A DNA stretch of 47,631 nucleotides from Candidatus Krumholzibacteriia bacterium (GCA_041613275.1 JBFJHN010000001.1:1-47631); one strand, 5' to 3'; shown: positions 22,514 to 47,458, counted from the first letter of the stretch. Program-made: numbers and translations. Notes: a model not told the origin generated them from the sequence alone.

Positions 22514-22623
22514 GGTCTCTCTCCTTGGTCGTCAAGCGCGGCTTCGATGCCGCTGTCGCTCATCGTGAGCAGCGTTTCGAACGCTGCGCGGTAGCAGTCG
22601 CCGCTTCCGGTGGGGCCGCTCAT
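22510..22623 (-). CDS. micro-ORF (37 aa) coupled between AAA+ gene and 228-aa gene
   Basis: ATG 22623 overlaps the TGA of the AAA+ gene, and its own TGA overlaps ATG 22513. Sequence MSGPTGSGDCYRAAFETLLTMSDSGIEAALDDQGERP. Supported only by the double ATGA coupling. Confidence 0.4.
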   Translation of the reverse strand: MSGPTGSGDCYRAAFETLLTMSDSGIEAALDDQGERP

Positions 22624-24191
22624 TGGTCGAGCAGCGCGGCGCGCTGACTCCGCTTCGGTCGCGGCTTCTTCTTCTTGAGCGGCGTCGACGCCGGTCGCGT
22701 TCTGGACGACGCCCACTCGCGAAGGTCGGCGATGTCTGCCGCTCTCGACTTCGAGATCGGTGTCGTCGCGTCTGCGGCGGCGATGAGATCATCGGTCGAC
22801 AGCTCGCGCTCACCGTCTGCGAAAGCGCGGAACATGCCGCTCGGCACCAGCTCTGCTAGCTCTGCGCCGTTGAACTCGTGGCATGCGCTGACGACGGCTT
22901 CGAGATCGAAGTCGTCCGGGTTGCGCTTGAACTTCTTCAGCGTCGCTTCGAGAATCGCGACCGCTTCGACGTCGTTCGGCAAGTCCACGAAGAAGACGTC
23001 GTCGAACCGCCCCTTGCGGAACAGCTCTGGCGGCAGCGACGTGACGTCGTTCGCCGTGGCGATGACGAAGACCGGCTTCTCGTGCTCTTGCAGCCACGTG
23101 AGCACCGTTCCGAGAGCGTCGGAAGAGACGCCGCCGTCTTCGCGGCCCTTCGTGCTTCCGAGCGCTTTCTCGACTTCGTCGATCCAGAGCGCGCACGGCG
23201 CGACCGCTTCGGCGACGCGCAGCGCTTGGCGCAAGTTCGTCTCGCTGTCGCCGACGTACTTCGAGCGCAGCGCGCCGAAGTCCATGCGCAAGAGCGGGAT
23301 GTTCCACGCCGTAGGAATGGTCTTCGCGAGTAGCGACTTGCCGCATCCGGTCACGCCGAGCAGCAAGACGCCGCGCGGCGACGGCAGACCGTACGCGCGA
23401 GCCGACTCGGTGAGAGCCATCTTGCGCGACAGCGCCCACTCTTTGAACTCGTCGAGACCGCCGACCGCGTTCAGGCCGCGCGGGTCGGGGTCGAACCACG
23501 TGAGCACTTTCTCGCGGTCGATAATCTGGCGCTTCTGCTCGCTGACGACTTTCGGATCGACGACGCCGTCGCGCCTCTGCTTGCCGTTCATGGTCGCGAC
23601 GATCGAGTACGCGAAGGCCGACTCGGCGTCGATCGTGGTGAGTCCAGCGGCGGCGTCGACGACGTTCTCGCGTTCGCCGACGAGCTTCTTGCCGCTGAGC
23701 TTCAAGAAGTCATCGAGCAGCTCGCCGATCTGCTCGCGAGACGGAAGCGGCCATTCGATCGAGACCGTGCTCGGTCTCAGCGCTGGCGGGATGTCGCTCA
23801 CCGGAGTGAGCGCGACAACGGCGGCGAGCAGCTTCGGGTCGGATCCCTCTTGTAGATCGCGCGCAAGCGACTTCAGCATGCGCTCGATGCCGGGATCGCG
23901 CACCCACGGATGGACGTCGCGCAGAATCCATACTTCCTTGCGTGTGCGAGCGCGAATCCGCTTGACGACGTTCGGCAGTGACGGCGGTCCGTCTAGGTCG
24001 ACGGCGTCGCCGCTGTCGACTTCGGTCGCTCCGGTCGCGCAGTCCCACGCGATCGGCAAGTAGCCGCTCAGCTGCGCTTCGCGAGCGACCTCGTGCTCGA
24101 TGCGACGCTCTTCAGATGTAGTAATCCAGATGAACGTGTTCCGCGCTTTCAGATAGCAGCGGAAGCTCTTCTCCGGTTCGTTGGTCTTCAT
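22620..24191 (-). CDS. AAA+ ATPase, Ycf46-like (523 aa: ~250-aa N-domain plus classic-clade AAA module)
   Basis: Walker A GVTGCGKS, Walker B CALWIDEVEK, and IATANDVTSLPPELFRKGRFDDVFFVDLP (sensor-1/SRH). The whole C-terminal half parallels my recollection of cyanobacterial/plastid Ycf46. ATG 24191 was chosen because the upstream ORF-track extension is Arg-rich. Confidence 0.9.
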   Translation of the reverse strand: MKTNEPEKSFRCYLKARNTFIWITTSEERRIEHEVAREAQLSGYLPIAWDCATGATEVDSGDAVDLDGPPSLPNVVKRIRARTRKEVWILRDVHPWVRDPGIERMLKSLARDLQEGSDPKLLAAVVALTPVSDIPPALRPSTVSIEWPLPSREQIGELLDDFLKLSGKKLVGERENVVDAAAGLTTIDAESAFAYSIVATMNGKQRRDGVVDPKVVSEQKRQIIDREKVLTWFDPDPRGLNAVGGLDEFKEWALSRKMALTESARAYGLPSPRGVLLLGVTGCGKSLLAKTIPTAWNIPLLRMDFGALRSKYVGDSETNLRQALRVAEAVAPCALWIDEVEKALGSTKGREDGGVSSDALGTVLTWLQEHEKPVFVIATANDVTSLPPELFRKGRFDDVFFVDLPNDVEAVAILEATLKKFKRNPDDFDLEAVVSACHEFNGAELAELVPSGMFRAFADGERELSTDDLIAAADATTPISKSRAADIADLREWASSRTRPASTPLKKKKPRPKRSQRAALLDQ

Positions 24192-24289
24192 GGTTCGTTC
24201 TCTCTCTTGCCCTGCTTGCTTGACAAGCCGAAGCGAGCGCAGGTAACTTGCGCTTCGACGTCTCTCTCTCAATGATGCGTCAACGTTTT

Positions 24290-30299: not shown

Positions 30300-30977
30300 G
30301 TGGCGAAGAAGAAGAAGTACCGAGTCTCAGAGCACAGCATCCACGAGTACACGTTCGACGAAGACAACCCGCGCAAGCGTGACGCGAAAGCTCGCTCAGC
30401 TCTTGAGCAGAGCTTGAGGCACTTCGGCGCTGTTCGCTCGCTTGGAGCAACGAAGGGCCGCGTCATCCGAGCAGGCAACGGCACGGCGCGTGCGGCTCTA
30501 GCTGGCGAGATCACCGAAGTGATTGAAGTTGAGACGGACGGCTCGCAGCTGGTCGTCGTGTACCGCCCCGATCTCGACGGTTCGAAAGCTGCGCTCTACC
30601 GCGAAGCCGACAACCGCGCTTCCGATCTCGCGACGTACGACTACGAGAGGCTCGCCGAAGAGCTGCGTCGCCGTGCGGAAGAAGCCGGAACGACGGAAGC
30701 GATCGAAGCTGTCGGATGGGAGCCGCATGAGCTTGCGCCGTTGCTCGGGGCGTGGACTCCGCAAGGAAAGACAAGCGAAGAATTCGTTGCGCAAAGCCCG
30801 CGACACTCGCGGTACTTTGTAGTGACGATGGAGCAGTACGAAGTCGTGATGCGCGCAGTCGAAGCAATGCGCCGCGTCGAAAGCGACGCGTCGATCAGCC
30901 CTGGCCGAGCAATGGAGCTGATTAGCGCCGACTACTTGTCTGGAGTGCAGATCGAAGAAGGAGGAGCGAGCGAATGA
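30300..30977 (+). CDS. ParB N-terminal-domain (ParB/Srx-like) protein, paralog 1; DpdB-like candidate
   Basis: FDEDNPRKRDAKARSALEQSLRHFGAVRSL..VIRAGNGTARAAL.. and YREADNRASDLATYDYERL fit the ParB-like nuclease-domain pattern. ATGA-coupled to queC. C-terminal motif GRAMELISADYLSG is shared with 36732..37211. Confidence 0.6.
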   Translation: MAKKKKYRVSEHSIHEYTFDEDNPRKRDAKARSALEQSLRHFGAVRSLGATKGRVIRAGNGTARAALAGEITEVIEVETDGSQLVVVYRPDLDGSKAALYREADNRASDLATYDYERLAEELRRRAEEAGTTEAIEAVGWEPHELAPLLGAWTPQGKTSEEFVAQSPRHSRYFVVTMEQYEVVMRAVEAMRRVESDASISPGRAMELISADYLSGVQIEEGGASE

Positions 30978-31753
30978 CGAATTTGACTCGAATCAGAGAG
31001 GAGTCAGCAAAGAGAAAAGCAGAGCGCGCGAAGCCAAACGTCGCCGTGCTTCTCAGCGGTGGACTCGACTCGACGTGTCTTCTTGCGTCTCTTGTTGCCG
31101 CGCGAGACGCATCAGGAGTGCGCCCATGCAGCGTGAGCGTCTACTACGGGCAGAAGCACGAGCGCGAGCTGCGAGCTGCACAGGCGGTCGCAGATTATTT
31201 CGGCATCCAGCACAAGACGATCTCGCTGTCCGATGCGCTTGAGCACCCTGGCTCAGCTCTGACAGACGACTGCGTCTCCGTTCCGCGCGGTCACTACGCA
31301 GCAGAGACGATGAAAGCGACAGTCGTGCCGCATCGGAATCTATTGATGCTGACAGCAGCGAGCGCGTTCGGGCTGAGCAGATTCGGCGTCTCAGCGGTCG
31401 CTTACGCAGCGCATGCGGGCGATCACCCTATCTACCCTGATTGTCGAGAGAGCTTCGTCGAAGCGGCTCGCAAGCTGCTCTCGCTGAGCGTTGACCGCGA
31501 GGTCGAGATCATCGCTCCGTACCTGAGCAAGACCAAGGGCGACATCGTGAAAGAAGGCGTGCTCTACAGTGCGCCATTTGCCCTCACGTGGAGCTGCTAC
31601 GAAGGCGGCGAGTACCACTGCGGCGAGTGCGGCACGTGCGTCGAGCGGCGCGAAGCGTTCCGGCTTGCTGGAGTACTCGACCCTACCGTCTACGCACGCG
31701 GCGCACGTGATCTCGACGAGTTGTTAGCGCTAGGCGAGAGTGACGCGCTCTGA
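30974..31753 (+). CDS. queC: 7-cyano-7-deazaguanine (preQ0) synthase QueC
   Basis: PP-loop LLSGGLDST, YGQKHERELRAA, VVPHRNLLML, IYPDCRESF, and the Zn site SCYEGGEYHCGECGTCVERREAF. Confidence 0.9.
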   Translation: MTNLTRIREESAKRKAERAKPNVAVLLSGGLDSTCLLASLVAARDASGVRPCSVSVYYGQKHERELRAAQAVADYFGIQHKTISLSDALEHPGSALTDDCVSVPRGHYAAETMKATVVPHRNLLMLTAASAFGLSRFGVSAVAYAAHAGDHPIYPDCRESFVEAARKLLSLSVDREVEIIAPYLSKTKGDIVKEGVLYSAPFALTWSCYEGGEYHCGECGTCVERREAFRLAGVLDPTVYARGARDLDELLALGESDAL

Positions 31754-31771
31754 GAAGGAGCTTTCGACGCC

Positions 31772-32530
31772 GTGAGTGAGTTCTATTTTGCCTGGGTAGG
31801 GTCGGCTATCGAGACAACGATGAAGAACTGGGACTGGCACTCGAAGCCTCTGAACATCCTGGCCGCGATGCCATACGCGAGGTCATACAAGCAATTCGTA
31901 GACAAGACAGGTTTCAAGGCTCGCGCAACGATCCTTGATTCGGGGGCGTTCAGCGCTTACGCCTCTGGCGCGCCGACAGACATCGACGCCCTGATCTGCG
32001 AAGCCCGAACAGAAGCGTGGAACGAAGTCGTGGCGCTTGACGTCATCGGTGACAGCGCCGCCTCGCGCGAGAACGCTCTCGCGATGAGAGCTGCCGGTCT
32101 CGAAGTGATGCCGGTCTTCCACTACGGCGAGCCGTGGGAGCTGCTGTCGGAGTATTGCAGCAAGTTTCACCGGGTAGGTATCTCGTGCCGCTTCGGGGAG
32201 CCGAAAGGCGACGCGCTGCGATGGGTTGATCAGTGCTTCGCGCGAGAGTGGCCCAAACTCTTCCACTCGTTTGGGTGGGTCTCTCGCGAAGTCCTTCTTG
32301 CGGTGCCGTTTGACAGCGCGGATTCTGGAGCGTGGACAAGCAGCTTGAGGTTCGGCATTTGGCATGGGTACGGGCGAAGAAACCTGGGCTATCGTGTCAA
32401 AGCTAAGGATCATGACGCGCGGGTTGACGTTCAGCATTTTTGGGGATTGCAAGAAGAGCTGCGTGGGACGTGGGGCGCGATGCTTCGCGAGCCGCGCGCA
32501 GCCAAGGAGAGAGAGAATGAATCGAAGTGA
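31772..32530 (+). CDS. dpdA: DpdA-like DNA 7-deazaguanine transglycosylase (TGT superfamily, short phage type)
   Basis: ILDSGAFSAY, FHSFGWVS and FDSADSGAWTS correspond to the alDSGgFs / HgFGvK / saDSmaWs blocks I recall from phage DpdA proteins. Embedded among the que genes. GTG 31772 lies 11 nt after AAGGAG. Confidence 0.75.
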   Translation: MSEFYFAWVGSAIETTMKNWDWHSKPLNILAAMPYARSYKQFVDKTGFKARATILDSGAFSAYASGAPTDIDALICEARTEAWNEVVALDVIGDSAASRENALAMRAAGLEVMPVFHYGEPWELLSEYCSKFHRVGISCRFGEPKGDALRWVDQCFAREWPKLFHSFGWVSREVLLAVPFDSADSGAWTSSLRFGIWHGYGRRNLGYRVKAKDHDARVDVQHFWGLQEELRGTWGAMLREPRAAKERENESK

Positions 32531-32957
32531 AGAAGTCGAGCACCTTGGCAGACCGTCGACGGCGTCGATCGAGCTGCCGCAAGCCGTGCGCTTCGAGCAG
32601 ACGCCGAAACCGCTGGACGGTGGCGGCGCTGGCTTTCGGGTCACGCTGAACTGTCGAGAGTTCACGAGCCGTTGCCCGGTGACAAGTCAACCGGACTACG
32701 CAGAGCTGCGAATCGAATACGAGCCGCGCGGCACGATCATCGAGACGAAGTCGCTCAAGCTCTACCTGCAGAAGTTTCGTGACCGCGCAGCGTTCAACGA
32801 AGAACTGTGTCAAGCGATCTGCGACGAGCTGTTCGCGCTGCTCGCGCCCGGCATGCTCTCAGTCGAGATGAGCTTCGCGCATCGCGGCGGCATCAGCGTG
32901 AACCCGAAAGCCGTTCGGTGGACGGATGACGACGAAGAAGAGCGAGTCGCGCCGTGA
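32517..32957 (+). CDS. queF: NADPH-dependent preQ0 reductase QueF (unimodular type)
   Basis: ATG 32517 after AAGGAGAGAGAGA, overlapping the dpdA end by 14 nt. Catalytic-Cys motif SRCPVTSQPDY and NADPH motif ETKSLKLYLQKFR. Confidence 0.8.
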   Translation: MNRSEEVEHLGRPSTASIELPQAVRFEQTPKPLDGGGAGFRVTLNCREFTSRCPVTSQPDYAELRIEYEPRGTIIETKSLKLYLQKFRDRAAFNEELCQAICDELFALLAPGMLSVEMSFAHRGGISVNPKAVRWTDDDEEERVAP

Positions 32958-33415
32958 GCAAGCTCACGTGCACGCGCCGCCTGCAGTGGTGCATGGGCCA
33001 TCGGCTCGTCGGTCACGAAGGGAAGTGCTCGATGCTCCACGGACACAACTACGTCGGCCTGTTCGAAGCGTCGGCGAACGATCTTGACGACGTCGGCAGG
33101 GTGATCGACTTTTCTGTGCTGAAAGAGCGCATCGGTGGATGGATTGAAGAGCGATGGGATCACGGCTTCTTGCTAGCAGAAGGCGACGTTTCCGGTATGG
33201 CGGCGCTCGCGACGCTCGAAGAGCTTCAGCGAGCCGAAGGCGAGCGCCCGCAGAAGTCGGCGTTCTTGCCCTACAACCCGACCGCTGAGAACATCGCGCG
33301 CTATCTCGGCGAGCACGTCTGCGCGAATGTGCTCGCAGACGTCGGCGTGCGCGTCGATCGCGTGACGGTGTGGGAGACCGAGAACTGCTTCGCGACCTGG
33401 GAGCGCAGCCGATGA
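32954..33415 (+). CDS. queD: 6-carboxy-5,6,7,8-tetrahydropterin synthase QueD
   Basis: GTGA overlap. GHRLVGHEGKCSMLHGHNY (CxxxHGH motif) and ..DHGFLL.. with the TVWETENCFA end, typical of the PTPS/QueD fold. Confidence 0.85.
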   Translation: MSKLTCTRRLQWCMGHRLVGHEGKCSMLHGHNYVGLFEASANDLDDVGRVIDFSVLKERIGGWIEERWDHGFLLAEGDVSGMAALATLEELQRAEGERPQKSAFLPYNPTAENIARYLGEHVCANVLADVGVRVDRVTVWETENCFATWERSR

Positions 33416-33696
33416 AGCACTCGAAGCGCGCGACAGAGATCGCGAACGACATTTTCAACCGGTACCCGGACTTGGTCGCGACGTACACGTCGAATAACTT
33501 CGGAGCAGTGCGCTTGTTCGATGCCGTCGCCGCCGCTCTCGAAGAAGCCATGATTCGAACGGCTCAAGAGTGCGAGCGCCGCATCAGCGGCATGAGCCGA
33601 CTCGGCGTGCGTGGCGGCGATCGTGGTGCCGACGAGATGCGCACCGTAGCCGCTGGCATCTGTCGGAGCGTCGCCGATGACGCGCGGAAGCGATGA
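33412..33696 (+). CDS. hypothetical protein (94 aa) inside the deazaguanine cluster
   Basis: ATGA overlap with queD. Begins MKHSKRATEIANDIFNRYPDLVATYTSNNFGAVRLFDAV... No motif recognised. Confidence 0.6.
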   Translation: MKHSKRATEIANDIFNRYPDLVATYTSNNFGAVRLFDAVAAALEEAMIRTAQECERRISGMSRLGVRGGDRGADEMRTVAAGICRSVADDARKR

Positions 33697-33913
33697 GCAG
33701 CTCGGCCTGGAGCTTGTCGAGCCGAGTCCGTGCCAAGCGGGCGACGTCGTTCGCTGGCACGAGAGCATCTTCAATTTATACCCGGCAAGCGGCGTCGTCG
33801 TCGTGGTCGACAGCGCGCGCCGCGCGGCGAGTGTCGAGCGTGCCGGTCGACTCGTCGACGTGCCGCTGTCGAGAATCGAAGGGGTCGTGAAATGCGCGAA
33901 GAGTTCCCCATAA
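33677..33913 (+). CDS. hypothetical protein (78 aa) inside the deazaguanine cluster
   Basis: ORF-track 33677..33913. Overlaps its neighbours by 20 and 22 nt. Composition is better than the competing Ser/Arg-rich frame 33693..33890. Confidence 0.5.
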   Translation: MTRGSDEQLGLELVEPSPCQAGDVVRWHESIFNLYPASGVVVVVDSARRAASVERAGRLVDVPLSRIEGVVKCAKSSP

Positions 33914-34398
33914 GCATCACCGCGAGCAGCCCGCGCGTCGACACGCTGCGTCGAGCGCGACTGAGACTGCTCGACGAACTGTCCGAGCGCGGCAAGGGCA
34001 CGTGCCCATGCTGCGGACGGATCGCGCGGTATCGGCGCGTGGCTCTCTCAAGCGGTCTCGCGTGGTTTCTCATCCGTCTCTACAAGCTCGGACTTTTCTC
34101 GGATGGTCGATGGGTGCACTACTCGGACGCGGTCTCTCGCGGCTCGAAAAAGCTCGGCGGCTTGAGCTACGGCGATCTGCGACACTGGAAGCTCATCGAG
34201 CCGCGCTACGACGCGAAGCCGGGGCAATGGCGACTGACGCATCACGGCAAGCTCTTCGTCAACGGAGAGCGCTCGGTCGAGAAGCGGCTTCTCATCTTCG
34301 ACGGCAAGGTGCGCAAGCGGAGCGAAGAGACGACCACCATCAAGCAAGCGCTCGGCACGCGCTTCGACTATGACGATCTGATGAAGGGGGTTCTGTGA
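33892..34398 (+). CDS. zinc-ribbon plus winged-helix-like protein (168 aa) inside the deazaguanine cluster
   Basis: ATG 33892. GKGTCPCCGRIARYRRVALSSGLAWFLIRLYKL...YGDLRHWKLIEP...GQWRLTHHGKLFVNG recalls a phage family of putative DNA-binding proteins (from memory). Confidence 0.6.
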   Translation: MREEFPISITASSPRVDTLRRARLRLLDELSERGKGTCPCCGRIARYRRVALSSGLAWFLIRLYKLGLFSDGRWVHYSDAVSRGSKKLGGLSYGDLRHWKLIEPRYDAKPGQWRLTHHGKLFVNGERSVEKRLLIFDGKVRKRSEETTTIKQALGTRFDYDDLMKGVL

Positions 34399-35189
34399 GC
34401 GACAAGACGTACAGAGTGAATGAAGTCTTCTATAGCGTGCAGGGCGAGGGCGCGCTCGTCGGCACGCCGATGGTCTTCATCCGCCTCTCGCGGTGCAACC
34501 TGCGCTGCTCGATGGAACCGGGCGAGAAGTCCCCTGGCGGCTTCGACTGCGACACGGAGTTCGAGAGCGGTCGGCGACTGACGCTCGGCGAGATTCTCGG
34601 CGAAGTGCTCGAAGCGCTCGACGAAGGACTCGCGAGCGTCGCTGGCTTGGTCGGAGTCTTGCGCTCTGGAGAGATCGAGCTGCACGGCTTGCATCCTTGG
34701 CTCTTGCTGACTGGCGGCGAGCCAGCTCTACAAGTCGACACCGAGTTCTGCGAGTACTTCCGCTCGCGCGGCTTTCGGCTCGCGATCGAGACGAACGGCT
34801 CGATGCTGCTGCCGAAGCGCGAGATGGGCGCTCTGTGGCGACCGCCAGACATGTGCATCGACGACGAGCTGACGCGCTTCCCGTTCGACCACATCACCGT
34901 CTCGCCGAAAGTCGCCGAGCATGCCGTGCGCCAGCTCTACGCGCACGAGCTGCGCTACGTGAGAGCGCACGGTCAGTCGATCCCCGAGCCGCGCTGCCAA
35001 GCTCTGCAGAGGTTCATTAGTCCGGCGTGGTCTGCCGAGAGCGCGCGACCGTTCGAAGGGCTCACTGCAGCAGACTCGCGCTTGAGTCGCGAGACGCGCG
35101 ACAACGCTTCGTGGTGCGTCGATCTTGTGAAGTCTAACCCCGACTGGCGACTCTCGCTGCAGACTCACAAGCTGCTCGGAGTGCGGTGA
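34395..35189 (+). CDS. queE: 7-carboxy-7-deazaguanine synthase QueE (radical SAM)
   Basis: GTGA overlap. YRVNEVFYSVQGEGALVGTPMVFIRLSRCNLRCSMEPGEKSPGGFDCDTEF, then LLLTGGEPAL, IETNG and ITVSPK. Confidence 0.85.
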   Translation: MSDKTYRVNEVFYSVQGEGALVGTPMVFIRLSRCNLRCSMEPGEKSPGGFDCDTEFESGRRLTLGEILGEVLEALDEGLASVAGLVGVLRSGEIELHGLHPWLLLTGGEPALQVDTEFCEYFRSRGFRLAIETNGSMLLPKREMGALWRPPDMCIDDELTRFPFDHITVSPKVAEHAVRQLYAHELRYVRAHGQSIPEPRCQALQRFISPAWSAESARPFEGLTAADSRLSRETRDNASWCVDLVKSNPDWRLSLQTHKLLGVR

Positions 35190-35812
35190 TGAACGACGCC
35201 GGTTACAGGCGCTTTCCGAAGCTCACTGAGCACCAGCTCACGCAGCTGACAGAGAAAGCAATTGAGGGCGTCGGCGCGCTCATCTGTCTGTGCAAGGGCG
35301 AGCCGAAGTTTCGGCACTCCGTTCTCGAAGAGACGCGGCTGCGCGTCGTGCGCGCGCTGATCGAGATGGGGCGCGGCTACGAAGAGCGGCCCGAAGACAT
35401 TCTCTCGAAGACGTTCGAAGCCGACGCCGATGAGATCATCGTCGTGAGCGACATTCGCTTCTCGTCGCTCTGCGAGCACCACCTAATGCCCTTCGTCGGC
35501 GCGTGCCACGTCGGCTACTTGCCGGGGGAGTCTGGACGCGTCGTCGGCTTGTCGAAGATTCCGCGACTCGTCGAGTGCTTCGCTCGGCGACTGCAGCTCC
35601 AAGAGCGTCTGACGCGCGAGATCGCGCAAGCGCTGGTCGACTGTCTCGACGTTGCCGGAGCTGGCGTCGTGATGCGCGCCGAGCACTCGTGCACGGCTTG
35701 TCGCGGCGTGCGCAAAGAGGGGTCGTCGATGGTGACGAGCGCAATGCTCGGTCGCTTCCGAGAAGACGAGGGTGCGCGCTTCGAGCTTCTGCGGCTCATG
35801 GAGATTCGATGA
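35186..35812 (+). CDS. folE: GTP cyclohydrolase I (FolE type)
   Basis: SDIRFSSLCEHHLMPFVGACHVGYLP..VVGLSKIPRLVECFARRLQLQERLT..VMRAEHSCTACRGV. Start is GTG 35186 (GTGA) or ATG 35189. Confidence 0.95.
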   Translation: MMNDAGYRRFPKLTEHQLTQLTEKAIEGVGALICLCKGEPKFRHSVLEETRLRVVRALIEMGRGYEERPEDILSKTFEADADEIIVVSDIRFSSLCEHHLMPFVGACHVGYLPGESGRVVGLSKIPRLVECFARRLQLQERLTREIAQALVDCLDVAGAGVVMRAEHSCTACRGVRKEGSSMVTSAMLGRFREDEGARFELLRLMEIR

Positions 35813-36249
35813 AGACGGCGATCGTCGGTGAGTGCCGAGAGCAGAGCGCGCGCTCGATCGAGCTGCTCGCTCGCGTCGCATGGACCGATGCGGCGACTGT
35901 ACGCGAGAGGGCGCCGTGCTTCGACTTGCTGCGCAGCGAGAGCTTCAAGATGATCGACGGACGGCTCGCCGCGCGCGAGCTGCGCTCGGAGCTTGAAGGG
36001 CTGCGCGTCGTCTTGCTCGGCTCGCGTGTCGCTCGGTGCTTCAACGTGACGCCGCCACAAGACGCACCAGCGCTGTTCTTGTGGCGCTTCGGCGTGAAGC
36101 TCTACGGACGCGCGACCGAGTCCGTCGCCGTCGTCACGAGCCGCGCTGACAGCGTGTGGTACGGCGAAGCCGCCGAGCAAGCGAGCGCGTTCGTGCGGAG
36201 CGCTCTCGGCATGAAGGTCGAGCAAGAGCGGCAGAGAAAGATCTTGTGA
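35809..36249 (+). CDS. hypothetical protein (146 aa) coupled to folE
   Basis: ATGA overlap with folE. MKTAIVGECREQ...LRVVLLGSRVARCF faintly recalls the UDG-superfamily layout (IVGE.P ... vvLLG..A). Very weak. Confidence 0.55.
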   Translation: MKTAIVGECREQSARSIELLARVAWTDAATVRERAPCFDLLRSESFKMIDGRLAARELRSELEGLRVVLLGSRVARCFNVTPPQDAPALFLWRFGVKLYGRATESVAVVTSRADSVWYGEAAEQASAFVRSALGMKVEQERQRKIL

Positions 36250-36329
36250 TCCCGAAACCGGATGGGGTAGCGTGAAACGAACCAGCGAGCGCGCAAGACT
36301 GAGCGCACGCACAACCAGGGAGAGAGAGA

Positions 36330-36728
36330 ATGGTCAACAAAGTATTTCTCGTCGGCTATCTCGGCGGCGATCCAGACGTGCGGTCGACGCCGAACGGCAA
36401 GCCGGTCGCGACGTTCTCCGTCGCCACAAGCCAGAAATGGCGCGACCGAGACGGCAACCGCCAAGAGAAAACAGAGTGGCACTCCGTCGTCTGTTGGGAG
36501 CGGAACGCGGAAGTCGCCGGTCAGTACTTGACGAAGGGCCAGCTCGTACACGTCGAGGGGCGGATCGAGACGCGCTCGTGGGAAGACAAGCAGACCGGCG
36601 ACAAGCGGTACAAGACGGAAGTCATCTGCGACCGCTTTCAGATGCTCGGCGGTGGCTCGCGCAGCACCGAAGAGCGAGAGCGCACGGCGAACTACCGAGA
36701 CGACGACGAAGACGACATTCCGTTCTAG
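36330..36728 (+). CDS. ssb: single-stranded DNA-binding protein
   Basis: MVNKVFLVGYLGGDPDVRSTPNGKPVATFSVATSQKWRDRDGNRQEKTEWHSVVCW OB-fold pattern with an acidic C-terminal tip DDDEDDIPF. Confidence 0.95.
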   Translation: MVNKVFLVGYLGGDPDVRSTPNGKPVATFSVATSQKWRDRDGNRQEKTEWHSVVCWERNAEVAGQYLTKGQLVHVEGRIETRSWEDKQTGDKRYKTEVICDRFQMLGGGSRSTEERERTANYRDDDEDDIPF

Positions 36729-36731
36729 CTC

Positions 36732-37211
36732 GTGGGCTGGCGTTCAAAGCGGATCCCCGTCGTCTCTCTGCTCGTGCCGATTCAGCGGAGAGTGAGCAAG
36801 ACGCTGCTCACGATCGCAGAGCGCGAGTTGCGCTCCGGCAAGTACCTACCGCCGCGCGTGAGAGAGAAGGGCGATGGCATGGCCGAAGTCGTGCGCGGCG
36901 AGTACGTCGTGCTCGCGGCGAGACAGCTCGGCGTCTCCGAGCTGCGCGTGCTCGTGTGTGTCGCTGGCGACGACGGACCGCCGATGAGCAAGCCGGTCTT
37001 TTTGACTTCCGAGCAGAGACCCATCTTCGACGCCGCCGCACGGCGCGTGCGAGAGATCGAGGGCGACGAGTCGCTTCGAGACGGTCGCTGCTTGGAGCTG
37101 ATTTGCGCAGACTTCTTGAGCGGCGCTGGATGGCCCGAAAAGCGGCTCGTAAGCCACGAAGCGCCGTCAGGGGTGGCTCGGTATGTGTCCGAGCCGGATC
37201 GTACGGAATAG
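36732..37211 (+). CDS. ParB N-terminal-domain protein, paralog 2
   Basis: RIPVVSLLVPIQRR...LPPRV...EVVRGEYVVLAARQLGVSELRVLVCV is ParB-box-like. C-terminal FLTSEQRPIFDAAARRVREIEGDESLRDGRCLELICADFLSG parallels VVTMEQYEVVMRAVEAMRRVESDASISPGRAMELISADYLSG of 30300..30977. Confidence 0.55.
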   Translation: MGWRSKRIPVVSLLVPIQRRVSKTLLTIAERELRSGKYLPPRVREKGDGMAEVVRGEYVVLAARQLGVSELRVLVCVAGDDGPPMSKPVFLTSEQRPIFDAAARRVREIEGDESLRDGRCLELICADFLSGAGWPEKRLVSHEAPSGVARYVSEPDRTE

Positions 37212-41555: not shown

Positions 41556-41933
41556 ATGAAAAGGGCCAGTCTTTTGATTCTCGTCGCCGTGGCTATTGCC
41601 ACGGCAGGATGTTCGCAGCTGCAGCCGTTGCTCCCCGGCTTCTCACCGATCGACAACGAAACATGCGCGGGCGCGCGGCTCGTGGTCGATCTCGTCTGTC
41701 CGGTGGTAGCGGAGACCGGCAGCATGCTCTCTGCTCGCGACGTCGGCGAGTCGTGCGGCACGGTGATGCTGTTTGACATGGCAGAGCGCCGTCGCTCCGT
41801 GAGCACCGATTCGGAGCTGATGCGCAAGAGCGCGACGCGCACCGTCGTGCGGACGCCGACCGGCGAGAAGTTCACGGTCCCGCTCTCGTTCGACCGAGTG
41901 AACGCCGAGTTCGACGAGCATCGCTGTCGATGA
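41556..41933 (+). CDS. lipoprotein (125 aa; lipobox IATAG|C)
   Basis: AAAGGAG SD. MKRASLLILVAVAIATAGCSQ.. is a signal peptidase II-type signal. Five further Cys in the mature part. Confidence 0.7.
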   Translation: MKRASLLILVAVAIATAGCSQLQPLLPGFSPIDNETCAGARLVVDLVCPVVAETGSMLSARDVGESCGTVMLFDMAERRRSVSTDSELMRKSATRTVVRTPTGEKFTVPLSFDRVNAEFDEHRCR

Positions 41934-43738
41934 AACAGCATCGCGTCTCGATGTGGGGCGAGCCGATCGACGGCCTCGTTCAAGGATTCCCGCAAGCGGC
42001 TGCGTGGTGCGCTCGCCACGGCATCGGAACGAAGCTGCACGTGCAGGCGGTTCGTCTGCTGAATAGGAAGTGGCTCAGTGATCCGGTGACGCGTTTCATG
42101 CAAGAGCGCGCCGATGACATCTACGGCGTCGCCACGAATCGGCAGTGTGTCGAATGGTGCGCGAGGAAAGCAGTACCGCTCGTCGTCTGCGTTTCGCACT
42201 TCCGCCCCGGTTCGCCCGGCGGTCGAGTCGGCTACAACGACGAAGCGTTCAGAGTCACCGACGCCGAGTTCGCGCTCGCTTGCTCACTGGCAGAGAGAGA
42301 GGCGCTACGGCTTCACGTGCTCGACGACCGGCTCGTCATCCAGATTGAGAATGAGCCGTTCGCCGGGAACGCTGCGTACGAGCTTGACGAGTACGACGAT
42401 CGGTGGATGGCGGCAGTCGATGCCGTCGACGAAGCGGAAGTTCTGATTCGAGACGTCACCACATCAACGCGCATCACCGAAGGGCGACACTTCGCGATTC
42501 CCGATGCGTTCTCTCTGGAGCAAGTCGCGCAGGGTGTGACGCAGCGACGTCGCGGCACGAACGGCCCACGGTTCGCTCTCGACGAGTTCTGGCTCGCGCG
42601 CGGCCGAGAAGACAGCGAGCGCTCAGCGGCTCAGTACCGCACGGCTCTCGCGCAAGCAGAGCGCGAAGGGTCGATCGTGACCGGATTCTTCGTCGGTCAC
42701 GAAGGGCAGAGTGCCGGTCTGCGGTGGGGCGCTGCGACGTACTACACGACGGCATGGGGGGACGGCGCGATGACAGCGATCGGCAGGGCGCTCGATGAAC
42801 TGTTCCAGCACGAGACCCCGGTTCCGATCGTGCCGACTCCACAGCCGAAGCCGGACGTGCATACGCGAACGAAGATCGCTCGCGCTCTCGATGCGATCGA
42901 GTCGCTGCTCGTGCGGCGGCAGAGCGCCAAGATGCCGAAGCGCGACAAGTGGGAAGAGACGTCGTTCTTGCGCGACGGCGATCTCGGCTCGCTCCGCGTG
43001 TCGATCGAGACGGTGCGCGGCTGGCTCGCGAGCGTGTCGAACAGACCGAGCCAAGCCGAGACGCGCCAAGCGCTGCGCGAGCTTGAGTCGATGCGCCACG
43101 AGATCGAGTCGCGCGTCGGCAAAGTGCCGAACAGGAAGAAGCGCAAGTCGACCGCTGCTCTCAGGAGCGGCGACGTCGATGACGTCATCGAGACGCTCGA
43201 AGACTTGGAGCTGCTCATCGCTTCGCTCACCTTCGCCGACGACAAGCCAGCGCCGCCGACGCCGCTCCCGCCAGGGCGACCGGACGACCAGCTGCCGAGC
43301 GACGGTGGCGCGCAGTTCTCCGAAGACGACCTCGCGGCTGTGTCCATGCTGATGCAAGATGAGCGCGTTCATCTCGCATGCTTGCGCCGCCGCAACCACT
43401 GGGAGATTCGTCACCGGAACACGGAGGGCGGCGAGCCATCCGCACCGATCCGAGAGGCGACGATCTCCGCTGCGTACTCTCGCTACAAGCGCGAGCGCTT
43501 CGGAGTTACGCTGACGAGACCTCCGCACCAGCTCTCGCGCGACGAAGTCGCAGCGCTCGCTGCGCTGTGGAACGTGCCGCTCGACAACCCGCGAGCCGTT
43601 CGGTGGGAGAGGGATTACACCGAAGTCGACTACATCGACCGAGACGGCGAGCACGCGGGCGGCGCGAGTGACAGTGCGCGGTGGGGGCGAGGCGAACTCG
43701 TCGAGCCGGTGAAGCATCTCGTGCGAGCGCTGTCGTGA
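41930..43738 (+). CDS. large hypothetical protein (602 aa); N-terminal ~280 aa possibly a clan GH-A-like glycosidase barrel
   Basis: ATGA overlap with the lipoprotein gene. VIQIENEPFAGNAAYE (NEP acid/base-type motif) and RFALDEFWLARG (candidate nucleophile strand). The C-terminal half (coil, Pro-rich linker, unknown domain) is unassigned. Confidence 0.6.
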   Translation: MKQHRVSMWGEPIDGLVQGFPQAAAWCARHGIGTKLHVQAVRLLNRKWLSDPVTRFMQERADDIYGVATNRQCVEWCARKAVPLVVCVSHFRPGSPGGRVGYNDEAFRVTDAEFALACSLAEREALRLHVLDDRLVIQIENEPFAGNAAYELDEYDDRWMAAVDAVDEAEVLIRDVTTSTRITEGRHFAIPDAFSLEQVAQGVTQRRRGTNGPRFALDEFWLARGREDSERSAAQYRTALAQAEREGSIVTGFFVGHEGQSAGLRWGAATYYTTAWGDGAMTAIGRALDELFQHETPVPIVPTPQPKPDVHTRTKIARALDAIESLLVRRQSAKMPKRDKWEETSFLRDGDLGSLRVSIETVRGWLASVSNRPSQAETRQALRELESMRHEIESRVGKVPNRKKRKSTAALRSGDVDDVIETLEDLELLIASLTFADDKPAPPTPLPPGRPDDQLPSDGGAQFSEDDLAAVSMLMQDERVHLACLRRRNHWEIRHRNTEGGEPSAPIREATISAAYSRYKRERFGVTLTRPPHQLSRDEVAALAALWNVPLDNPRAVRWERDYTEVDYIDRDGEHAGGASDSARWGRGELVEPVKHLVRALS

Positions 43739-43742
43739 CTCC

Positions 43743-45146
43743 ATGCGTCGAGCCGTCGACCGACCGCTCGTACTCGACTGCTGGAGCGGTCTCAGTGAGC
43801 GCGTTCTCGATCTAGCCGAGCGGCTGCGCGTCGGCGCGTCGTGGGAAGCTGGCATCTGCAGACCGTACTCGGTCTACGCCAGAGAGAAGCAGCGCATCCC
43901 GTTCGGCGAAGAGTGGTTCCTCTATCTCTTCGTCACCGGTCGCGGCATCGGCAAGACGTGGACGCTGTCGGGTACCGGCGTCTCGAAATGGAAAGCGAAC
44001 GAGTGGCGGCGAACGGCGATCATCGCGCCGACGCAAGACGACGTCCGCAAGTGGGTGTCGGAAGACGACGAGTCGGGCATCATGGCGATGTGCTACGCAG
44101 AGGGTCTCGGCGTCCACTACTCGTCGGCGAACATGCGGCTCTCGTTCGACTCTGGCGCGAAGGCGTATCTGTACTCAGCGGAGAAGGGCGGCAAGCTGCG
44201 GAACAAGCAGCACGACTCCGCACTGCTCGACGAGATGCGCGAGTGGGTCGACCTTTCCGGCGTCTACGACAATCTAATTCGCGGTTTGCGGCTCGGTCGT
44301 GACCCGCGCATGATCGGCGCGACCACGCCGCCCGGTGTCGTCGGTGAGAGCAAGGTTGGCGCGAAAGTCCAAGCCGCGAACAAGAAGTTCATCCGCAAGC
44401 TCATGGAGCGCGAGTCGACTCGGATCGTGACCGGCTCATCGATGGAGAACGTCGACAACCTCTCGCCGGTCTACTACGCAGAGGCGATCGAGCCGTACAT
44501 CGGCACGCGCGTCGGACGGCAAGAAGTCGACGGTGAGTTCATCGACGAAGTCGAGGGCGCGCTGCTGAAGCCGAGCGACTTCGACCGGCTGCGCGTCAAG
44601 CCGAGCGAAGTGCCAGACGATCTCGTGCGCGTCGCAGTCTCGGTCGACCCGCCAGGAACGAGCACGAACGAAAGCTCTGAAGCTGGCGTCTTGTCGATGG
44701 CTGTTTCGGGGCCGGTGAACGGCGGCAAGCCGCACGCGTACTTGCTCGACGACGTCTCTGGACACATGAGCCCTACAGAGTGGGCGCGCGCTGCGGCGAA
44801 GCTCTACCACCAGCGGAAAGCCGACGTCGTCTTCGGCGAAGTCAACCATGGCGGCGACATGGTGAAGTCGACGCTGCGCTCGTACGACGACTCGCTCGTC
44901 GTCCAGCAGATTCGAGCGAGTCGCGGCAAGCACGTGCGCGTCGCTCCGGCGATCGGCATGGTTGAGCAGGGGCGCGTGCACCACGTCGGCGAGTTCCCTG
45001 TCCTCGAAGAGCAGCTCTGTTCGTTCACCGACGCGGGGTACTTCGGCGTCGGCTCTCCAGACCGCGCGGATGCGTGGGCGTATCTCGTGCAAGAGCTACT
45101 GCTCAGAGGGCAAGCGCACGGGTACTACAAAGTCGCACGGCGCTAA
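43743..45146 (+). CDS. terL: terminase large subunit
   Basis: Walker A FVTGRGIGKT, Walker B SALLDEMREW. C-terminal RNaseH-like nuclease blocks VAVSVDPPG, VVFGEVNHGGDMV and SPDRADAWAYL. Followed by the portal gene. Confidence 0.9.
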   Translation: MRRAVDRPLVLDCWSGLSERVLDLAERLRVGASWEAGICRPYSVYAREKQRIPFGEEWFLYLFVTGRGIGKTWTLSGTGVSKWKANEWRRTAIIAPTQDDVRKWVSEDDESGIMAMCYAEGLGVHYSSANMRLSFDSGAKAYLYSAEKGGKLRNKQHDSALLDEMREWVDLSGVYDNLIRGLRLGRDPRMIGATTPPGVVGESKVGAKVQAANKKFIRKLMERESTRIVTGSSMENVDNLSPVYYAEAIEPYIGTRVGRQEVDGEFIDEVEGALLKPSDFDRLRVKPSEVPDDLVRVAVSVDPPGTSTNESSEAGVLSMAVSGPVNGGKPHAYLLDDVSGHMSPTEWARAAAKLYHQRKADVVFGEVNHGGDMVKSTLRSYDDSLVVQQIRASRGKHVRVAPAIGMVEQGRVHHVGEFPVLEEQLCSFTDAGYFGVGSPDRADAWAYLVQELLLRGQAHGYYKVARR

Positions 45147-45170: not shown

Positions 45171-47429
45171 GTGGCTTCAACACTAGTAGAGCGCGTGAAA
45201 GTCGCCGCGCGAGTGTTCCGAGCGCTCGGAGAGCCAGACCCCGACGCCGCGCGCGGTCTACTTTCTCAAGTGTTCCCGATGATGGGGCCGGGGCCGCGAC
45301 GCACGGCTATCGACTACTTGCGCTACTACACGCGCTCGCCGCTTCTGCGGATGATCGGCTCGCGCATCGCCGGAGCGACGGCGGCTGTTCGATGGGAAGC
45401 GCTGACACCGACCGCGGGCGGCTCTCGTGGTGAGCGCGTCGCCGCCGAAGTGCTCCATGCGGACGCCACGTCGCGCGCCAAGATGCTCGTCGGCATGAAG
45501 CGCGCTGGCGATCTGCGCGAGATCCCGAACCATCCGATTCTGCACCTCAGACAACGCGAGTGGGGCGGCATCTACGGCGGCGAGCGGCGGAAGCTGACGC
45601 AGCTCTACTTCGACATAGTCGGCGAGAGCTTCTTGCTGATGGACCGCAACGCGTTCGGCATGCCGATCGGCTTGCAAGTGCTGCCGCCGACGTGGTGCAA
45701 AGCGATCGCCACGGCGCGCAAGCCGACGTTCCGATTCGAATACGGCACGTGGCGACCGGAGCCGATCCCGGCGACGGAAGTCGTCTACATGCGCGATCTC
45801 GACCCGGTCTTTCCGTCGTCGCGCGGCATCGGTGCGGCGATGGCTCTCGGCGACGAGCTGCACGTCGATGAGATGGCAGCGAAGCACATCGGCGCTGAGT
45901 ATCAGAATCGCGGCGTGCCGCCGTACCTCATCGGCTTGCCGGGAGCGACGCCGCGCCAAGCGCGCGAACTCGAAGACGACATCGTCGCTCGGCGCAGGGG
46001 AGTGCGCAGCTACGCGCCGATCGCGTTCACGTTGCCGCCCGAAGCCGATCTCGCGAAGTCGGTGCTGTTCAAAGAGCTGTCGCGCGAGCTGGTCGGCGTG
46101 CAGTCGACGGCGATCCGCACGCAAGAGCAAGACATCGCGATTCAGATGTTCCATCTCTCGCCAGAGACACTCGGTCGCATCACGAACTCGAATCGAGCGA
46201 CGATCGACGCCGCCGACTACCTGCTCGCTCGTGGCGTACTGATGCCGCGCCTGGAGTACGAGCGCGAAGTGTGGCAAGAGCGCGTCGTGCCGGAGTTCGA
46301 CAACCGCCCCGGCAAGCTCATCCTTGCGTACGAGAGTCCGGTCGAAGAGGACAAGCAGCACACGCTGCGCGTCTCGGCTCGTCATCCGTCCGCTCTGACG
46401 AACGACGAGAAGCGAGAGATGATGAATCTTGAGCCGTGGGGACCGGAGCGCGGCGGCGACAAAGTAATGATCCCGGCGAACGTCGGCTTCATCGACCCCG
46501 CCGAGCTGCCGACGCCGGAAGAGGCGCGACCGCCGAAGCAGAACGGCGAGCGCCAGGACCGCTCTTGGCGCTACCGCCGAAAAGAGCTGGACGTCGAGCG
46601 CGTGATCGAGCAGTTCTCGAAGCTCTTTGCCGCCGCGTATCTGTCCTCGATCGACGCCGAAGTCGAAGCGGCTGCGACCGGTCTCGACGCGGCGGTGGAC
46701 GCGGGACCGCGCTCGGTCGAGCAGCTCGTGTCGTTCGACCGGTTCGCCGAGTCTTTCGAGCCGGAAGCGCGCTCGGCTCTTGAAGCGATCGTGAGCAGTG
46801 TCGGCAGCGAGTCGGCGGCTCAGCTCGGAACGAGCTTCAACGTGGACGGCTTCGCGCGCGAGTGGATTCGCTCGCACGGTGCCGACATGGTGACGGGTGT
46901 CGCTGATGCGAACCGTGCCGGTCTACGGCGCGCGCTCGAAAGCGCCTTCAGAGAGAGCGGCACGACGCGCGAAGCGCTGCTCAAGCAGATCGAGAAGCAC
47001 ATCGGACTCGACAAGAACGGCTCGCGCAGTCTCGACAAGTTCATCCGCGAGCTTGCCGCAGACCCGCCCGACGTCTCCGAAGCGCAGCTGCAGCGGATGA
47101 TAGACCGCAAGCATCGGGAGCTGCTGCGCCGCCGCGCGAATCTCATCGCCACGCAAGAGACGAACGACGCCGCGAACTTCGCCGAGGGCGAGAGCTGGAA
47201 GCGCGCCGTCTCGGATGGCACGATCGGCGAGGACTCGATGCAGACATGGATGCGTGAGCCGAGCACCGAAGCATGCGAGCACGACGGTGGTATCTGCGAC
47301 CGACTCGACGGGCAGACCGTACGAGTGGGCGCTTCATTCAGCGACAACGGCAAGCAGGTCGAGCGGCCCCCGGTCGGCATCGGCTGCAAGTGCCGCAGAC
47401 TGTTAGACGCGACCGACCCTGACGAGTGA
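45171..47429 (+). CDS. portal protein fused to a MuF/SPP1-gp7-like head-morphogenesis domain (752 aa)
   Basis: N-terminal ~430 aa are HK97-type portal-like (..NHPILHLRQREWGG..LTQLYFDIVGESFLLMD..VLPPTW..). The C-terminus has the MuF signature ANLIATQETNDAANFAEGESWK ... CDRLDGQTVRVGASFSDNGKQVERPPVGIGCKCR. GTG 45171 has no SD, so the start is uncertain. Confidence 0.85.
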   Translation: MASTLVERVKVAARVFRALGEPDPDAARGLLSQVFPMMGPGPRRTAIDYLRYYTRSPLLRMIGSRIAGATAAVRWEALTPTAGGSRGERVAAEVLHADATSRAKMLVGMKRAGDLREIPNHPILHLRQREWGGIYGGERRKLTQLYFDIVGESFLLMDRNAFGMPIGLQVLPPTWCKAIATARKPTFRFEYGTWRPEPIPATEVVYMRDLDPVFPSSRGIGAAMALGDELHVDEMAAKHIGAEYQNRGVPPYLIGLPGATPRQARELEDDIVARRRGVRSYAPIAFTLPPEADLAKSVLFKELSRELVGVQSTAIRTQEQDIAIQMFHLSPETLGRITNSNRATIDAADYLLARGVLMPRLEYEREVWQERVVPEFDNRPGKLILAYESPVEEDKQHTLRVSARHPSALTNDEKREMMNLEPWGPERGGDKVMIPANVGFIDPAELPTPEEARPPKQNGERQDRSWRYRRKELDVERVIEQFSKLFAAAYLSSIDAEVEAAATGLDAAVDAGPRSVEQLVSFDRFAESFEPEARSALEAIVSSVGSESAAQLGTSFNVDGFAREWIRSHGADMVTGVADANRAGLRRALESAFRESGTTREALLKQIEKHIGLDKNGSRSLDKFIRELAADPPDVSEAQLQRMIDRKHRELLRRRANLIATQETNDAANFAEGESWKRAVSDGTIGEDSMQTWMREPSTEACEHDGGICDRLDGQTVRVGASFSDNGKQVERPPVGIGCKCRRLLDATDPDE

Positions 47430-47458
47430 GGTAGACTCGCGAGCTAAGGAGAAACTAA

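What the first reader, a model, noticed from the sequence alone, without database searches (positions are those of the whole stretch)
30300..37211. Two paralogous ParB-N-domain proteins bracket the deazaguanine/SSB block and share a private C-terminal motif; the first may be a DpdB-like partner of DpdA
Seen in sequence:
- 30300-30977 and 36732-37211 both begin with ParB/Srx-like N-domains.
- Both end with a clearly alignable ~45-aa segment: VVTMEQYEVVMRAVEAMRRVESDASISPGRAMELISADYLSG versus FLTSEQRPIFDAAARRVREIEGDESLRDGRCLELICADFLSG.
- Paralog 1 is ATGA-coupled to queC and lies one gene from dpdA.

Established knowledge, from my recollection: in the bacterial dpd system, DpdA needs the ParB-like ATPase DpdB to insert preQ0 into DNA.

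Inference: paralog 1 may be the phage DpdB equivalent. The duplicated C-terminal module suggests that both proteins dock on a common partner or DNA site. There is no ParA gene, so a classical partition role is unlikely.
Basis: partly seen in the sequence, partly recalled or inferred. Interest (0 to 1): 0.6.

Follow-up and report, generated by a model that had tools for sequence, protein, structure and literature searches.

The report
ParB-like partner genes of phage DpdA
Two small ParB-like genes flank this phage's genes for swapping guanine in DNA for a 7-deazaguanine; the first belongs to a widespread phage family that sits beside one large branch of the base-swapping enzyme DpdA, so it is probably DpdA's helper, and the shared tail of the two proteins is a common, so far unnamed protein domain rather than a private motif.

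Summary
Both ORFs are real. Their C-termini are truly homologous (BLASTP E 3e-9; shuffle z 17).

The motif is not private. It is a ~48-aa module found in at least 119 protein clusters, mostly at the extreme C-terminus of 190-240-aa phage ParB-N proteins. It also occurs alone and fused to other N-domains. Pfam, PHROGs, NCBIfam and PDB sequences do not cover it.

P1 is a normal member of this ParB-N + module family. P2 has the module behind a short, degenerate ParB-like core that lacks the nucleotide-pocket motifs (hhalign 77%).

Gene linkage is strong in both directions:
- 23 of 53 viral loci found by the module alone have DpdA beside the gene.
- 51 of 80 loci found by DpdA alone have a ParB-N or module gene within 300 nt.
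- The window's DpdA clade is essentially always paired, while the Queuovirinae clade never is.

P1 is therefore very probably a functional partner of DpdA, analogous to bacterial DpdB. It is not a DpdB-family member: it has no DGQQR motif, no SspE-like C-domain, and is half the length.

A packaging-linked role remains a rival, because the family also sits just upstream of terminase genes in phages without dpdA.

Earlier reports of this scan noted ParB-DpdA pairs on other DNA. In print I found only a one-line suggestion for mycobacteriophage CRB2.

The parts
30300..30977 (+). P1: ParB-N domain + 'W-x-P' linker + C-terminal module protein (225 aa). GTG start 3 nt after the DnaC/IstB-like gene; stop overlaps the queC ATG.
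   Evidence: aligned over residues 1-219 with IMG/VR homologues
30300..30722 (+). P1 ParB/Srx-like N-domain (about residues 4-141). Box I is N23-P-R25. Box II is G59-N-G-T62 (Thr where most relatives have Arg). Box III is D104-N105-R106.
   Evidence: phrog_620 E 1.9e-15; family HMM 116.7 bits; motif counts
30810..30950 (+). P1 copy of the conserved ~48-aa C-terminal module (residues about 171-217).
   Evidence: module HMM built without P1 and P2: 61.7 bits, E 4e-21
30974..31753 (+). queC (7-cyano-7-deazaguanine synthase)
   Evidence: Pfam QueC E 1.2e-51
31772..32530 (+). Short DpdA-type DNA-guanine transglycosylase (about 236-252 aa).
   Evidence: phrog_887 E 6.5e-28; 229 phage records by tblastn; tree
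32517..32957 (+). queF-like gene. The start is uncertain; 146 aa as called in other assemblies.
   Evidence: Pfam QueF E 8.3e-22; gene call
32954..33415 (+). queD (PTPS)
34395..35189 (+). queE
   Evidence: homology to queE of 19 loci
35186..35812 (+). folE (GTP cyclohydrolase I)
36330..36728 (+). SSB; P2 starts 3 nt after its stop.
36732..37211 (+). P2: short degenerate ParB-like core (residues about 7-76, no Box I/II/III motifs) + module + 'GWP' + 24-aa tail (159 aa).
36990..37127 (+). P2 copy of the conserved module (residues about 87-132).
   Evidence: module HMM built without P1 and P2: 86.0 bits, E 1e-28

Best explanation
P1 is a phage ParB/Srx-fold protein that works with the DpdA transglycosylase encoded one gene downstream.

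Most likely mechanism (inferred):
- P1 dimerises through its C-terminal module, as canonical ParB does through its C-domain. The module may also contact DNA.
- P1 binds phage DNA, possibly in a nucleotide-dependent way, through the ParB-N pocket.
- It recruits or activates the short DpdA on DNA, so that guanines are exchanged for preQ0 or preQ1 across the genome.
- This is the role that the ParB-like ATPase DpdB plays for bacterial DpdA.

P2 carries the same module on a cut-down ParB-like core without pocket motifs. It most likely pairs with P1, or binds the same target, through the module. It would act as a non-catalytic adaptor or regulator.

Shown here: homology, domain structure and gene linkage.
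Inferred: binding, dimerisation, any NTPase activity, and the effect on DpdA.
For: (1) Module to DpdA. 53 IMG/VR loci were found by the module pattern alone.
- 23 have DpdA beside the ParB-N+module gene, and 28 have DpdA or que genes.
- The link holds in 17 of 32 clusters at 45% identity.

(2) DpdA to ParB. 80 loci were picked by DpdA alone.
- 57 hold a ParB-N or module ORF, and 51 have one within 300 nt of DpdA, usually directly upstream.

(3) DpdA tree.
- Adjacency needs 10 changes on the tree, against 29 on shuffles (0 of 500 as low).
- The window's clade has 61 rows. 54 are adjacent, and 5 are scored non-adjacent; these are extra DpdA copies in loci that do hold ParB.
- The Queuovirinae-type clade of 22 rows has none. 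This is an internal control with the same flanks and the same detector.

(4) The pair stays together in different genome settings.
- In the window it sits in the replication block, 13 kb from TerL.
- In Rosebush and Megan it sits at the left genome end.
- In Cellulophaga phiSM a gene annotated ParB-like overlaps dpdA inside a replication block.

(5) The closest DpdA relatives, L070 and L071, have the same order as the window: ParB, queC, dpdA, queF, queD.

(6) A second ParB or module gene in the same cluster recurs in L072, L096, L106, L134/135, L049 and L053.

(7) Module-only ORFs lie directly in front of ParB-N-only ORFs in L032, L037, L038 and L062. This is a split-gene sign that the two parts work together.

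(8) Bacterial precedent: DpdA needs the ParB-like ATPase DpdB (PMC10164549).

(9) ParB-N proteins also accompany other phage DNA-modifying enzymes (PMC12783734).
Against: - There is no biochemical evidence.
- P1 is not a DpdB homologue beyond the superfamily.
- P1 has Thr where the GxxR arginine sits in 47 of 77 DpdA-adjacent relatives, so NTPase activity is doubtful for P1 itself.
- The ParB-N+module family also occurs without dpdA in 25 of 53 loci, typically just upstream of terminase and portal genes. Relatives above 45% identity differ in having dpdA. The family therefore has, or also has, a dpdA-independent role.
- The Queuovirinae dpdA loci examined carry no ParB-N or module gene near dpdA.
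- Both AF2 models were too poor to check folds.
Confidence: 0.6

Rival explanations
1. P1-type proteins are late-operon or packaging-associated ParB-like factors, for example binding near the pac/cos end or assisting terminase. On this reading dpdA cassettes merely tend to be inserted next to them, between the ParB-like gene and the terminase genes, so the linkage is positional and not functional.
For: - The nearest N-domain homologues, P0002 and P0003, lie directly upstream of terminase or portal genes.
- The Psychrobacter phage Y8A member lies between the Q antiterminator and terS/terL.
- In the 25 module loci without dpdA, the commonest neighbours are TerL, TerS and portal.
- Many matches lie at contig starts.
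- In Rosebush, Megan, L043 and L048 the order is ParB, dpdA/que, TerL.
- Close ParB relatives exist with and without dpdA.
Against: - In the window P1 sits with queC/dpdA in the replication block, 13 kb upstream of TerL. No ParB-like gene precedes the terminase.
- phiSM shows the same separation from packaging genes.
- Adjacency follows the DpdA phylogeny.
- 51 of 80 DpdA-selected loci have the gene within 300 nt, which is tighter than a shared insertion hotspot would predict.
Confidence: 0.2
2. P1 is a ParB-like nuclease that attacks unmodified (host) DNA, while the phage's deazaguanine DNA is spared. Modification and nuclease would form a phage-side 'restriction-modification-like' pair.
For: - Relatives are annotated 'ParB-like nuclease' or 'nuclease' (phrog_940, phrog_15396).
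- ParB-N domains are often fused to DNA methyltransferases (phrog_498; PMC12783734).
- The gene is tightly linked to a DNA-modification cluster.
Against: - The nuclease annotations are by name only.
- No nuclease motif was tested or seen here.
- The family also occurs in phages without any recognisable modification genes.
- The bacterial analogue DpdB has no endonuclease activity (PMC10164549).
Confidence: 0.1
3. P1 and P2 are a classical partition or centromere-binding system of a plasmid-like prophage.
For: The only support is the ParB-like fold and the 'partition protein' label of the PHROG families.
Against: - No ParA (PF13614) lies on the contig.
- No central HTH domain was detected.
- No parS-like repeat family lies in 26-41 kb.
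- The genes are embedded in a DNA-modification operon.
Confidence: 0.03

Closest known systems
DpdB of the bacterial Dpd system (Salmonella Montevideo; PMC10164549)
   Same: It is a ParB/Srx-superfamily protein encoded next to a DpdA transglycosylase and preQ0 synthesis genes. DpdB is required, as an ATPase, for DpdA to insert preQ0 into DNA. It is a homodimer.
   Different: - DpdB is about 400 aa. It has a DGQQR motif and an alpha-helical C-domain related to SspE.
- P1 is 225 aa. It has N-P-R / G-N-G-T / D-N-R motifs and a 48-aa C-terminal module.
- P1 has no PADLOC or NCBIfam match and contains no 'DGQ'.
Phage 'ParB-like partition protein / nuclease' families (phrog_620, 723, 8071, 930, 15396) and the ParB-N domain of phage DNA methyltransferases (phrog_498)
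   Same: P1's N-domain matches these profiles. 86 of 117 module-bearing proteins match phrog_620.
   Different: The PHROG profiles do not cover the C-terminal module. Matches stop at about residue 165, and module-only proteins hit nothing. No function has been tested for these families.
Rosebush gp1, CRB2 ORF1 and Megan gp1 (actinophage ParB-like gene upstream of dpdA)
   Same: A ParB-N gene lies directly upstream of, and overlaps, dpdA. P1 versus Rosebush gp1 gives 30% identity over 106 aa, E 4e-6. The CRB2 paper suggested ORF1 could be a dpdB homologue (PMC6392294).
   Different: These proteins lack the canonical module and have a looser strand-helix-helix-like C-terminus. Their clusters lie at the genome end next to TerL.
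Canonical ParB/Spo0J CTPase clamps
   Same: The N-domain fold family is shared, with conserved pocket boxes. The overall logic is also shared: an N-domain plus a C-terminal self-association domain.
   Different: P1 and P2 have no ParA partner, no central HTH, and no parS repeats. P1 lacks the GxxR arginine.

Membership tests
DpdB (Dpd system ParB-like ATPase) | ParB/Srx-fold N-terminal domain | tested here: met
   P1 matches phrog_620 at E 1.9e-15. Family members hit Pfam ParB_N (34 of 117).
DpdB (Dpd system ParB-like ATPase) | DGQQR/DGQHR nucleotide motif | tested here: not met
   P1 has G-N-G-T at the equivalent position. There is no 'DGQ' in P1 or P2. The motif is as described in PMC10164549.
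DpdB (Dpd system ParB-like ATPase) | About 400 aa with an alpha-helical C-domain related to SspE; recognised by Dpd profile models | tested here: not met
   P1 is 225 aa with a 48-aa module. There is no PADLOC hit at E <= 1 and no NCBIfam hit at E <= 0.1. Caveat: the phage DpdA also misses the PADLOC models.
DpdB (Dpd system ParB-like ATPase) | Encoded beside dpdA | tested here: met
   The window order is P1, queC, dpdA. 51 of 80 DpdA-selected loci have the gene within 300 nt.
DpdB (Dpd system ParB-like ATPase) | ATPase needed for preQ0 insertion by DpdA | not testable with these tools
   This needs biochemistry or genetics.
Phage ParB-N + C-terminal module family (unnamed; N-domain = phrog_620-like) | ParB-N domain with N-x-R-x-H, G-N/H-G-R/T and D-N-R/K boxes | tested here: met
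   P1 scores 116.7 bits against the family HMM. N23, G59 and N105 are present. P2 does not meet this: it has only a degenerate core.
Phage ParB-N + C-terminal module family (unnamed; N-domain = phrog_620-like) | C-terminal module, consensus PI.lT.EQR..iD.A...vR..e.D..iSEGRCLELICADyLaG | tested here: met
   With the HMM built without P1 and P2, P1 scores 61.7 bits and P2 scores 86.0 bits.
Canonical partition ParB | Partner ParA ATPase in the same element | tested here: not met
   PF13614 hits lie only on other contigs of the MAG.
Canonical partition ParB | Central HTH DNA-binding domain and clustered parS sites | tested here: not met
   No Pfam domain was found at E <= 10. No repeat family stands above chance in 26-41 kb.
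Ribbon-helix-helix domains (considered for the module) | Strand-helix-helix unit recognisable by RHH profiles or by fold | tested here: inconclusive
   - The pattern (hydrophobic strand, T-x-E-Q cap, two helices) fits an RHH.
- The low-confidence AF2 models give two helices.
- None of 78 module sequences hits any Pfam RHH family.
- There is no PDB sequence hit.

The most novel reading that the evidence does not exclude
A large branch of phage DpdA enzymes (short, about 240-280 aa) cannot act alone. It depends on a dedicated ParB-fold subunit that is unrelated in detail to DpdB. The 48-aa module is a new dimerising (possibly ribbon-helix-helix-like) domain. It lets different module-bearing proteins (P1, P2, zinc-ribbon and stand-alone forms) assemble into hetero-oligomers that load DpdA on DNA. 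If so, the missing partner should be checked for in any phage DpdA that fails to work when expressed alone in E. coli, as reported for the DpdA3 and DpdA4 families (PMC10516641); whether those loci carry such a gene was not examined here.
Probability: 0.3. Interest if true: 0.7.

Novelty: new variant of a known kind. Interest (0 to 1): 0.6.

Why it matters
Deazaguanine DNA modification is one of the main ways phages escape restriction and CRISPR. The two main phage papers (PMC6884629, PMC10516641) describe DpdA and the base-synthesis and tailoring enzymes, but do not mention a ParB-like component.

A conserved ParB-like gene is glued to one large DpdA branch and absent from another. This suggests two mechanistic classes of phage DpdA: partner-dependent and stand-alone. 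It gives a concrete missing factor to add when reconstituting these enzymes.

It also defines a common, unannotated 48-aa domain of phage ParB-like proteins. The idea is testable in cultured phages (Rosebush, Megan, Cellulophaga phiSM).

Tried and rejected
- **PDB sequence searches.** Searches with P1, P2 and the module profile gave only chance hits.
- **Pfam on 78 module sequences at E <= 10.** No family recurred and no RHH family appeared.
- **Single-protein scans of IMG/VR with P1 and P2.** No relatives were found.
- **Word-indexed search.** It found only 2 relatives for P1 and none for P2.
- **megablast of the region against phages.** Nothing was found.
- **tblastn of P2 against phages.** Nothing was found.
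- **Alignments A8 and A10.** They were too divergent for pattern scans, so the genomic context of the P2 subfamily (P0005, P0006, P0012) remains unknown.
- **The 21 contigs carrying P2.** All are the same phage from one study.
- **Search for parS-like repeats in 26-41 kb.** Only chance-level matches were found.
- **phiSM gp51 versus the ParB-N profile.** The match is weak (hhalign 16%), so its ParB nature rests on the depositors' annotation.
- **Classical partition role.** Rejected: no ParA and no HTH.
- **Recent local duplication of P1 into P2.** Rejected: P2's module is nearer to foreign sequences than to P1's.
Full report
**What is there.** The window is one whole contig of a 3.5-Mb, 713-contig MAG, and it is a phage genome.
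- Structural genes lie at 1-19 kb, with TerL at 43743-45146 and portal at 45171-47429.
- RusA lies at 38495 and Erf at 26747.
- Between 29.5 and 37.2 kb one plus-strand block reads: IstB/DnaC-like, P1 (30300-30977), queC, dpdA, queF, queD, three small ORFs, queE, folE, one ORF, SSB, P2 (36732-37211).
- P1's TGA overlaps the queC ATG. P2 starts 3 nt after the SSB stop.

**Check of the observation.**
- The two proteins align only in their C-terminal ~49 residues: 20/49 identical, E 3e-9. The score is 92 against 21 +/- 4 in 5000 shuffles.
- P1's N-domain is clearly ParB-like: phrog_620 at 1.9e-15 and phrog_498 at 1.3e-13. Pfam, NCBIfam and PADLOC miss it.
- P2 hits no library at all.
- A profile of the N-terminal parts of P2 and its three relatives (A4) matches the ParB-N profile (A5) in register over 63 columns. 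hhalign gives probability 77% and E 1.9e-5.
- P2 lacks the N-x-R, G-x-x-R and D-N-R boxes.
- No ParA is on the contig. No parS-like repeats are present.

**The motif is not private.**
- phmmer of P2 against 1.84 billion representatives gave 119 proteins at E <= 1e-3. Nearly all match only P2 residues ~80-132.
- Most are 190-240 aa with the module at the very C-terminus.
- 86 of 117 match phrog_620 and 34 match Pfam ParB_N.
- The module also occurs as stand-alone 47-90-aa proteins and behind unrelated N-domains.
- The consensus is PI.lT.EQR..iD.A...vR..e.D..iSEGRCLELICADyLaG (A6).
- An HMM built without P1 and P2 scores P2 at 86 bits and P1 at 62 bits.
- P2's module is nearer to many foreign sequences than to P1's, so the pair is not a recent local duplication.
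- The module is absent from Pfam, PHROGs and PDB sequences.
- Its pattern is a hydrophobic strand, a T-x-E-Q cap and two helices. The two helices appear in the low-confidence AF2 models. This resembles a ribbon-helix-helix unit, but that remains an inference.

**Linkage to DpdA, from the module side.** A pattern scan of IMG/VR with the module alone returned 53 loci. ORF maps gave the following:
- DpdA lies beside the ParB-N+module gene in 23 loci.
- DpdA or que genes are present in 28 loci.
- The link appears in 17 of 32 clusters at 45% identity.
- L053 repeats the window's bracket: a module-bearing (zinc-ribbon) gene, queD/E/C, folE, ParB-N+module, DpdA.
- In L032, L037, L038 and L062 a module-only ORF directly precedes a ParB-N-only ORF.
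- The 25 loci without dpdA mostly have TerL, TerS or portal within 3 kb. So do Psychrobacter phage Y8A and the nearest N-domain relatives P0002 and P0003.

**Linkage from the DpdA side.** 80 loci were chosen by DpdA similarity alone.
- 57 hold a ParB-N or module ORF.
- 51 have one within 300 nt of DpdA, usually directly upstream.
- L070 and L071, among the closest, share the window's order: ParB, queC, dpdA, queF, queD.
- L072, L096, L106 and L134/135 have two ParB-like genes per cluster.

On a DpdA tree of 112 rows:
- Adjacency needs 10 changes, against 29 on shuffles (0 of 500 as low).
- The window's clade (61 rows, SH-aLRT 98) has 54 adjacent rows. Five more rows are extra DpdA copies in loci that do hold ParB.
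- The Queuovirinae-type clade (22 rows, including EC151, R7M and Erebus) has none. This also serves as an internal control.

Among cultured phages:
- Rosebush gp1 and Megan gp1 are ParB-N genes overlapping dpdA. P1 versus gp1 gives E 4e-6.
- Cellulophaga phiSM gp51, annotated ParB-like, overlaps dpdA gp52 inside a replication block. Its match to my profile is weak.

**Interpretation.** P1 is best read as the accessory subunit of a partner-dependent DpdA clade, working like DpdB. It is not a DpdB-family member:
- It has no DGQQR motif, no SspE-like C-domain, and half the length (features from PMC10164549).
- Across 77 DpdA-adjacent ParB-N proteins the pocket boxes are kept: N invariant, GxxR Arg in 47, D-N-R/K. 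P1 itself has Thr at the Arg position, so nucleotide use by P1 is uncertain.

The main rival is a packaging-linked role with dpdA cassettes inserted nearby. Against it, P1 travels with dpdA 13 kb away from TerL in this phage, and adjacency follows DpdA phylogeny.

P2 lacks a pocket and keeps the module. It probably pairs with P1, or with P1's target, through the module.

**Literature and earlier notes.**
- Hutinet 2019 (PMC6884629) and Cui 2023 (PMC10516641) do not mention ParB.
- The CRB2 genome paper suggests ORF1 might be a dpdB homologue (PMC6392294).
- A 2025 paper notes ParBc proteins next to another phage DNA-modifying enzyme, with unknown function (PMC12783734).
- Earlier reports of this scan described ParB-DpdA pairs on other DNA. 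I tested the pairing independently here.

Noticed in passing
window 32517-32957: A QueF-like gene sits in the cluster, so the phage DNA is predicted to carry dPreQ1 (or a derivative) rather than dPreQ0. The true start codon is uncertain (the longest ORF starts at 32364).
   Followed up: partly
window 33370-34398 and 35809-36249: Four unassigned ORFs lie inside the deazaguanine cluster. One (ending at 34398) matches phrog_2693, of unknown function, at E 1.4e-23. They may be tailoring or accessory genes.
   Followed up: no
L043:5849-7491, L048, L069:5947-9389, L012:667-2540 (Megan), L091, L134/L135: Tandem DpdA paralogues (two, or three in L069) recur in ParB-linked clusters. In L134/L135 the DpdA-ParB pair itself is duplicated in tandem.
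   Followed up: partly
L032:2-836, L037:123-792, L038:8-848, L062:7911-8724: This is a split arrangement. A stand-alone module ORF is directly followed by a ParB-N ORF; in L037 and L062 that ParB-N ORF ends in a C-x-x-C zinc-ribbon-like motif. Other DpdA-adjacent ParB-N proteins (L106, L114, L135) also end in zinc ribbons instead of the module.
   Followed up: partly
L159:5869-7043 (Cellulophaga phage phiSM gp52-gp51): In a phage whose DNA modification has been studied chemically, a gene annotated as ParB-like overlaps dpdA by 13 nt. The 2023 study of that phage does not discuss it.
   Followed up: partly
window 41930-43738: A 602-aa ORF with no Pfam or PHROG hit lies between a small TerS-position gene and TerL.
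   Followed up: no
window 22620-24272 (minus strand): This is a classical AAA ATPase (Pfam AAA E 1.2e-27; phrog_8638 E 2.7e-133) in a minus-strand operon. It is not ParA-like.
   Followed up: no
window ends (1-1500 versus 46132-47631): The contig ends share no terminal repeat longer than 12 nt, so the assembly itself does not show circularity or completeness.
   Followed up: yes
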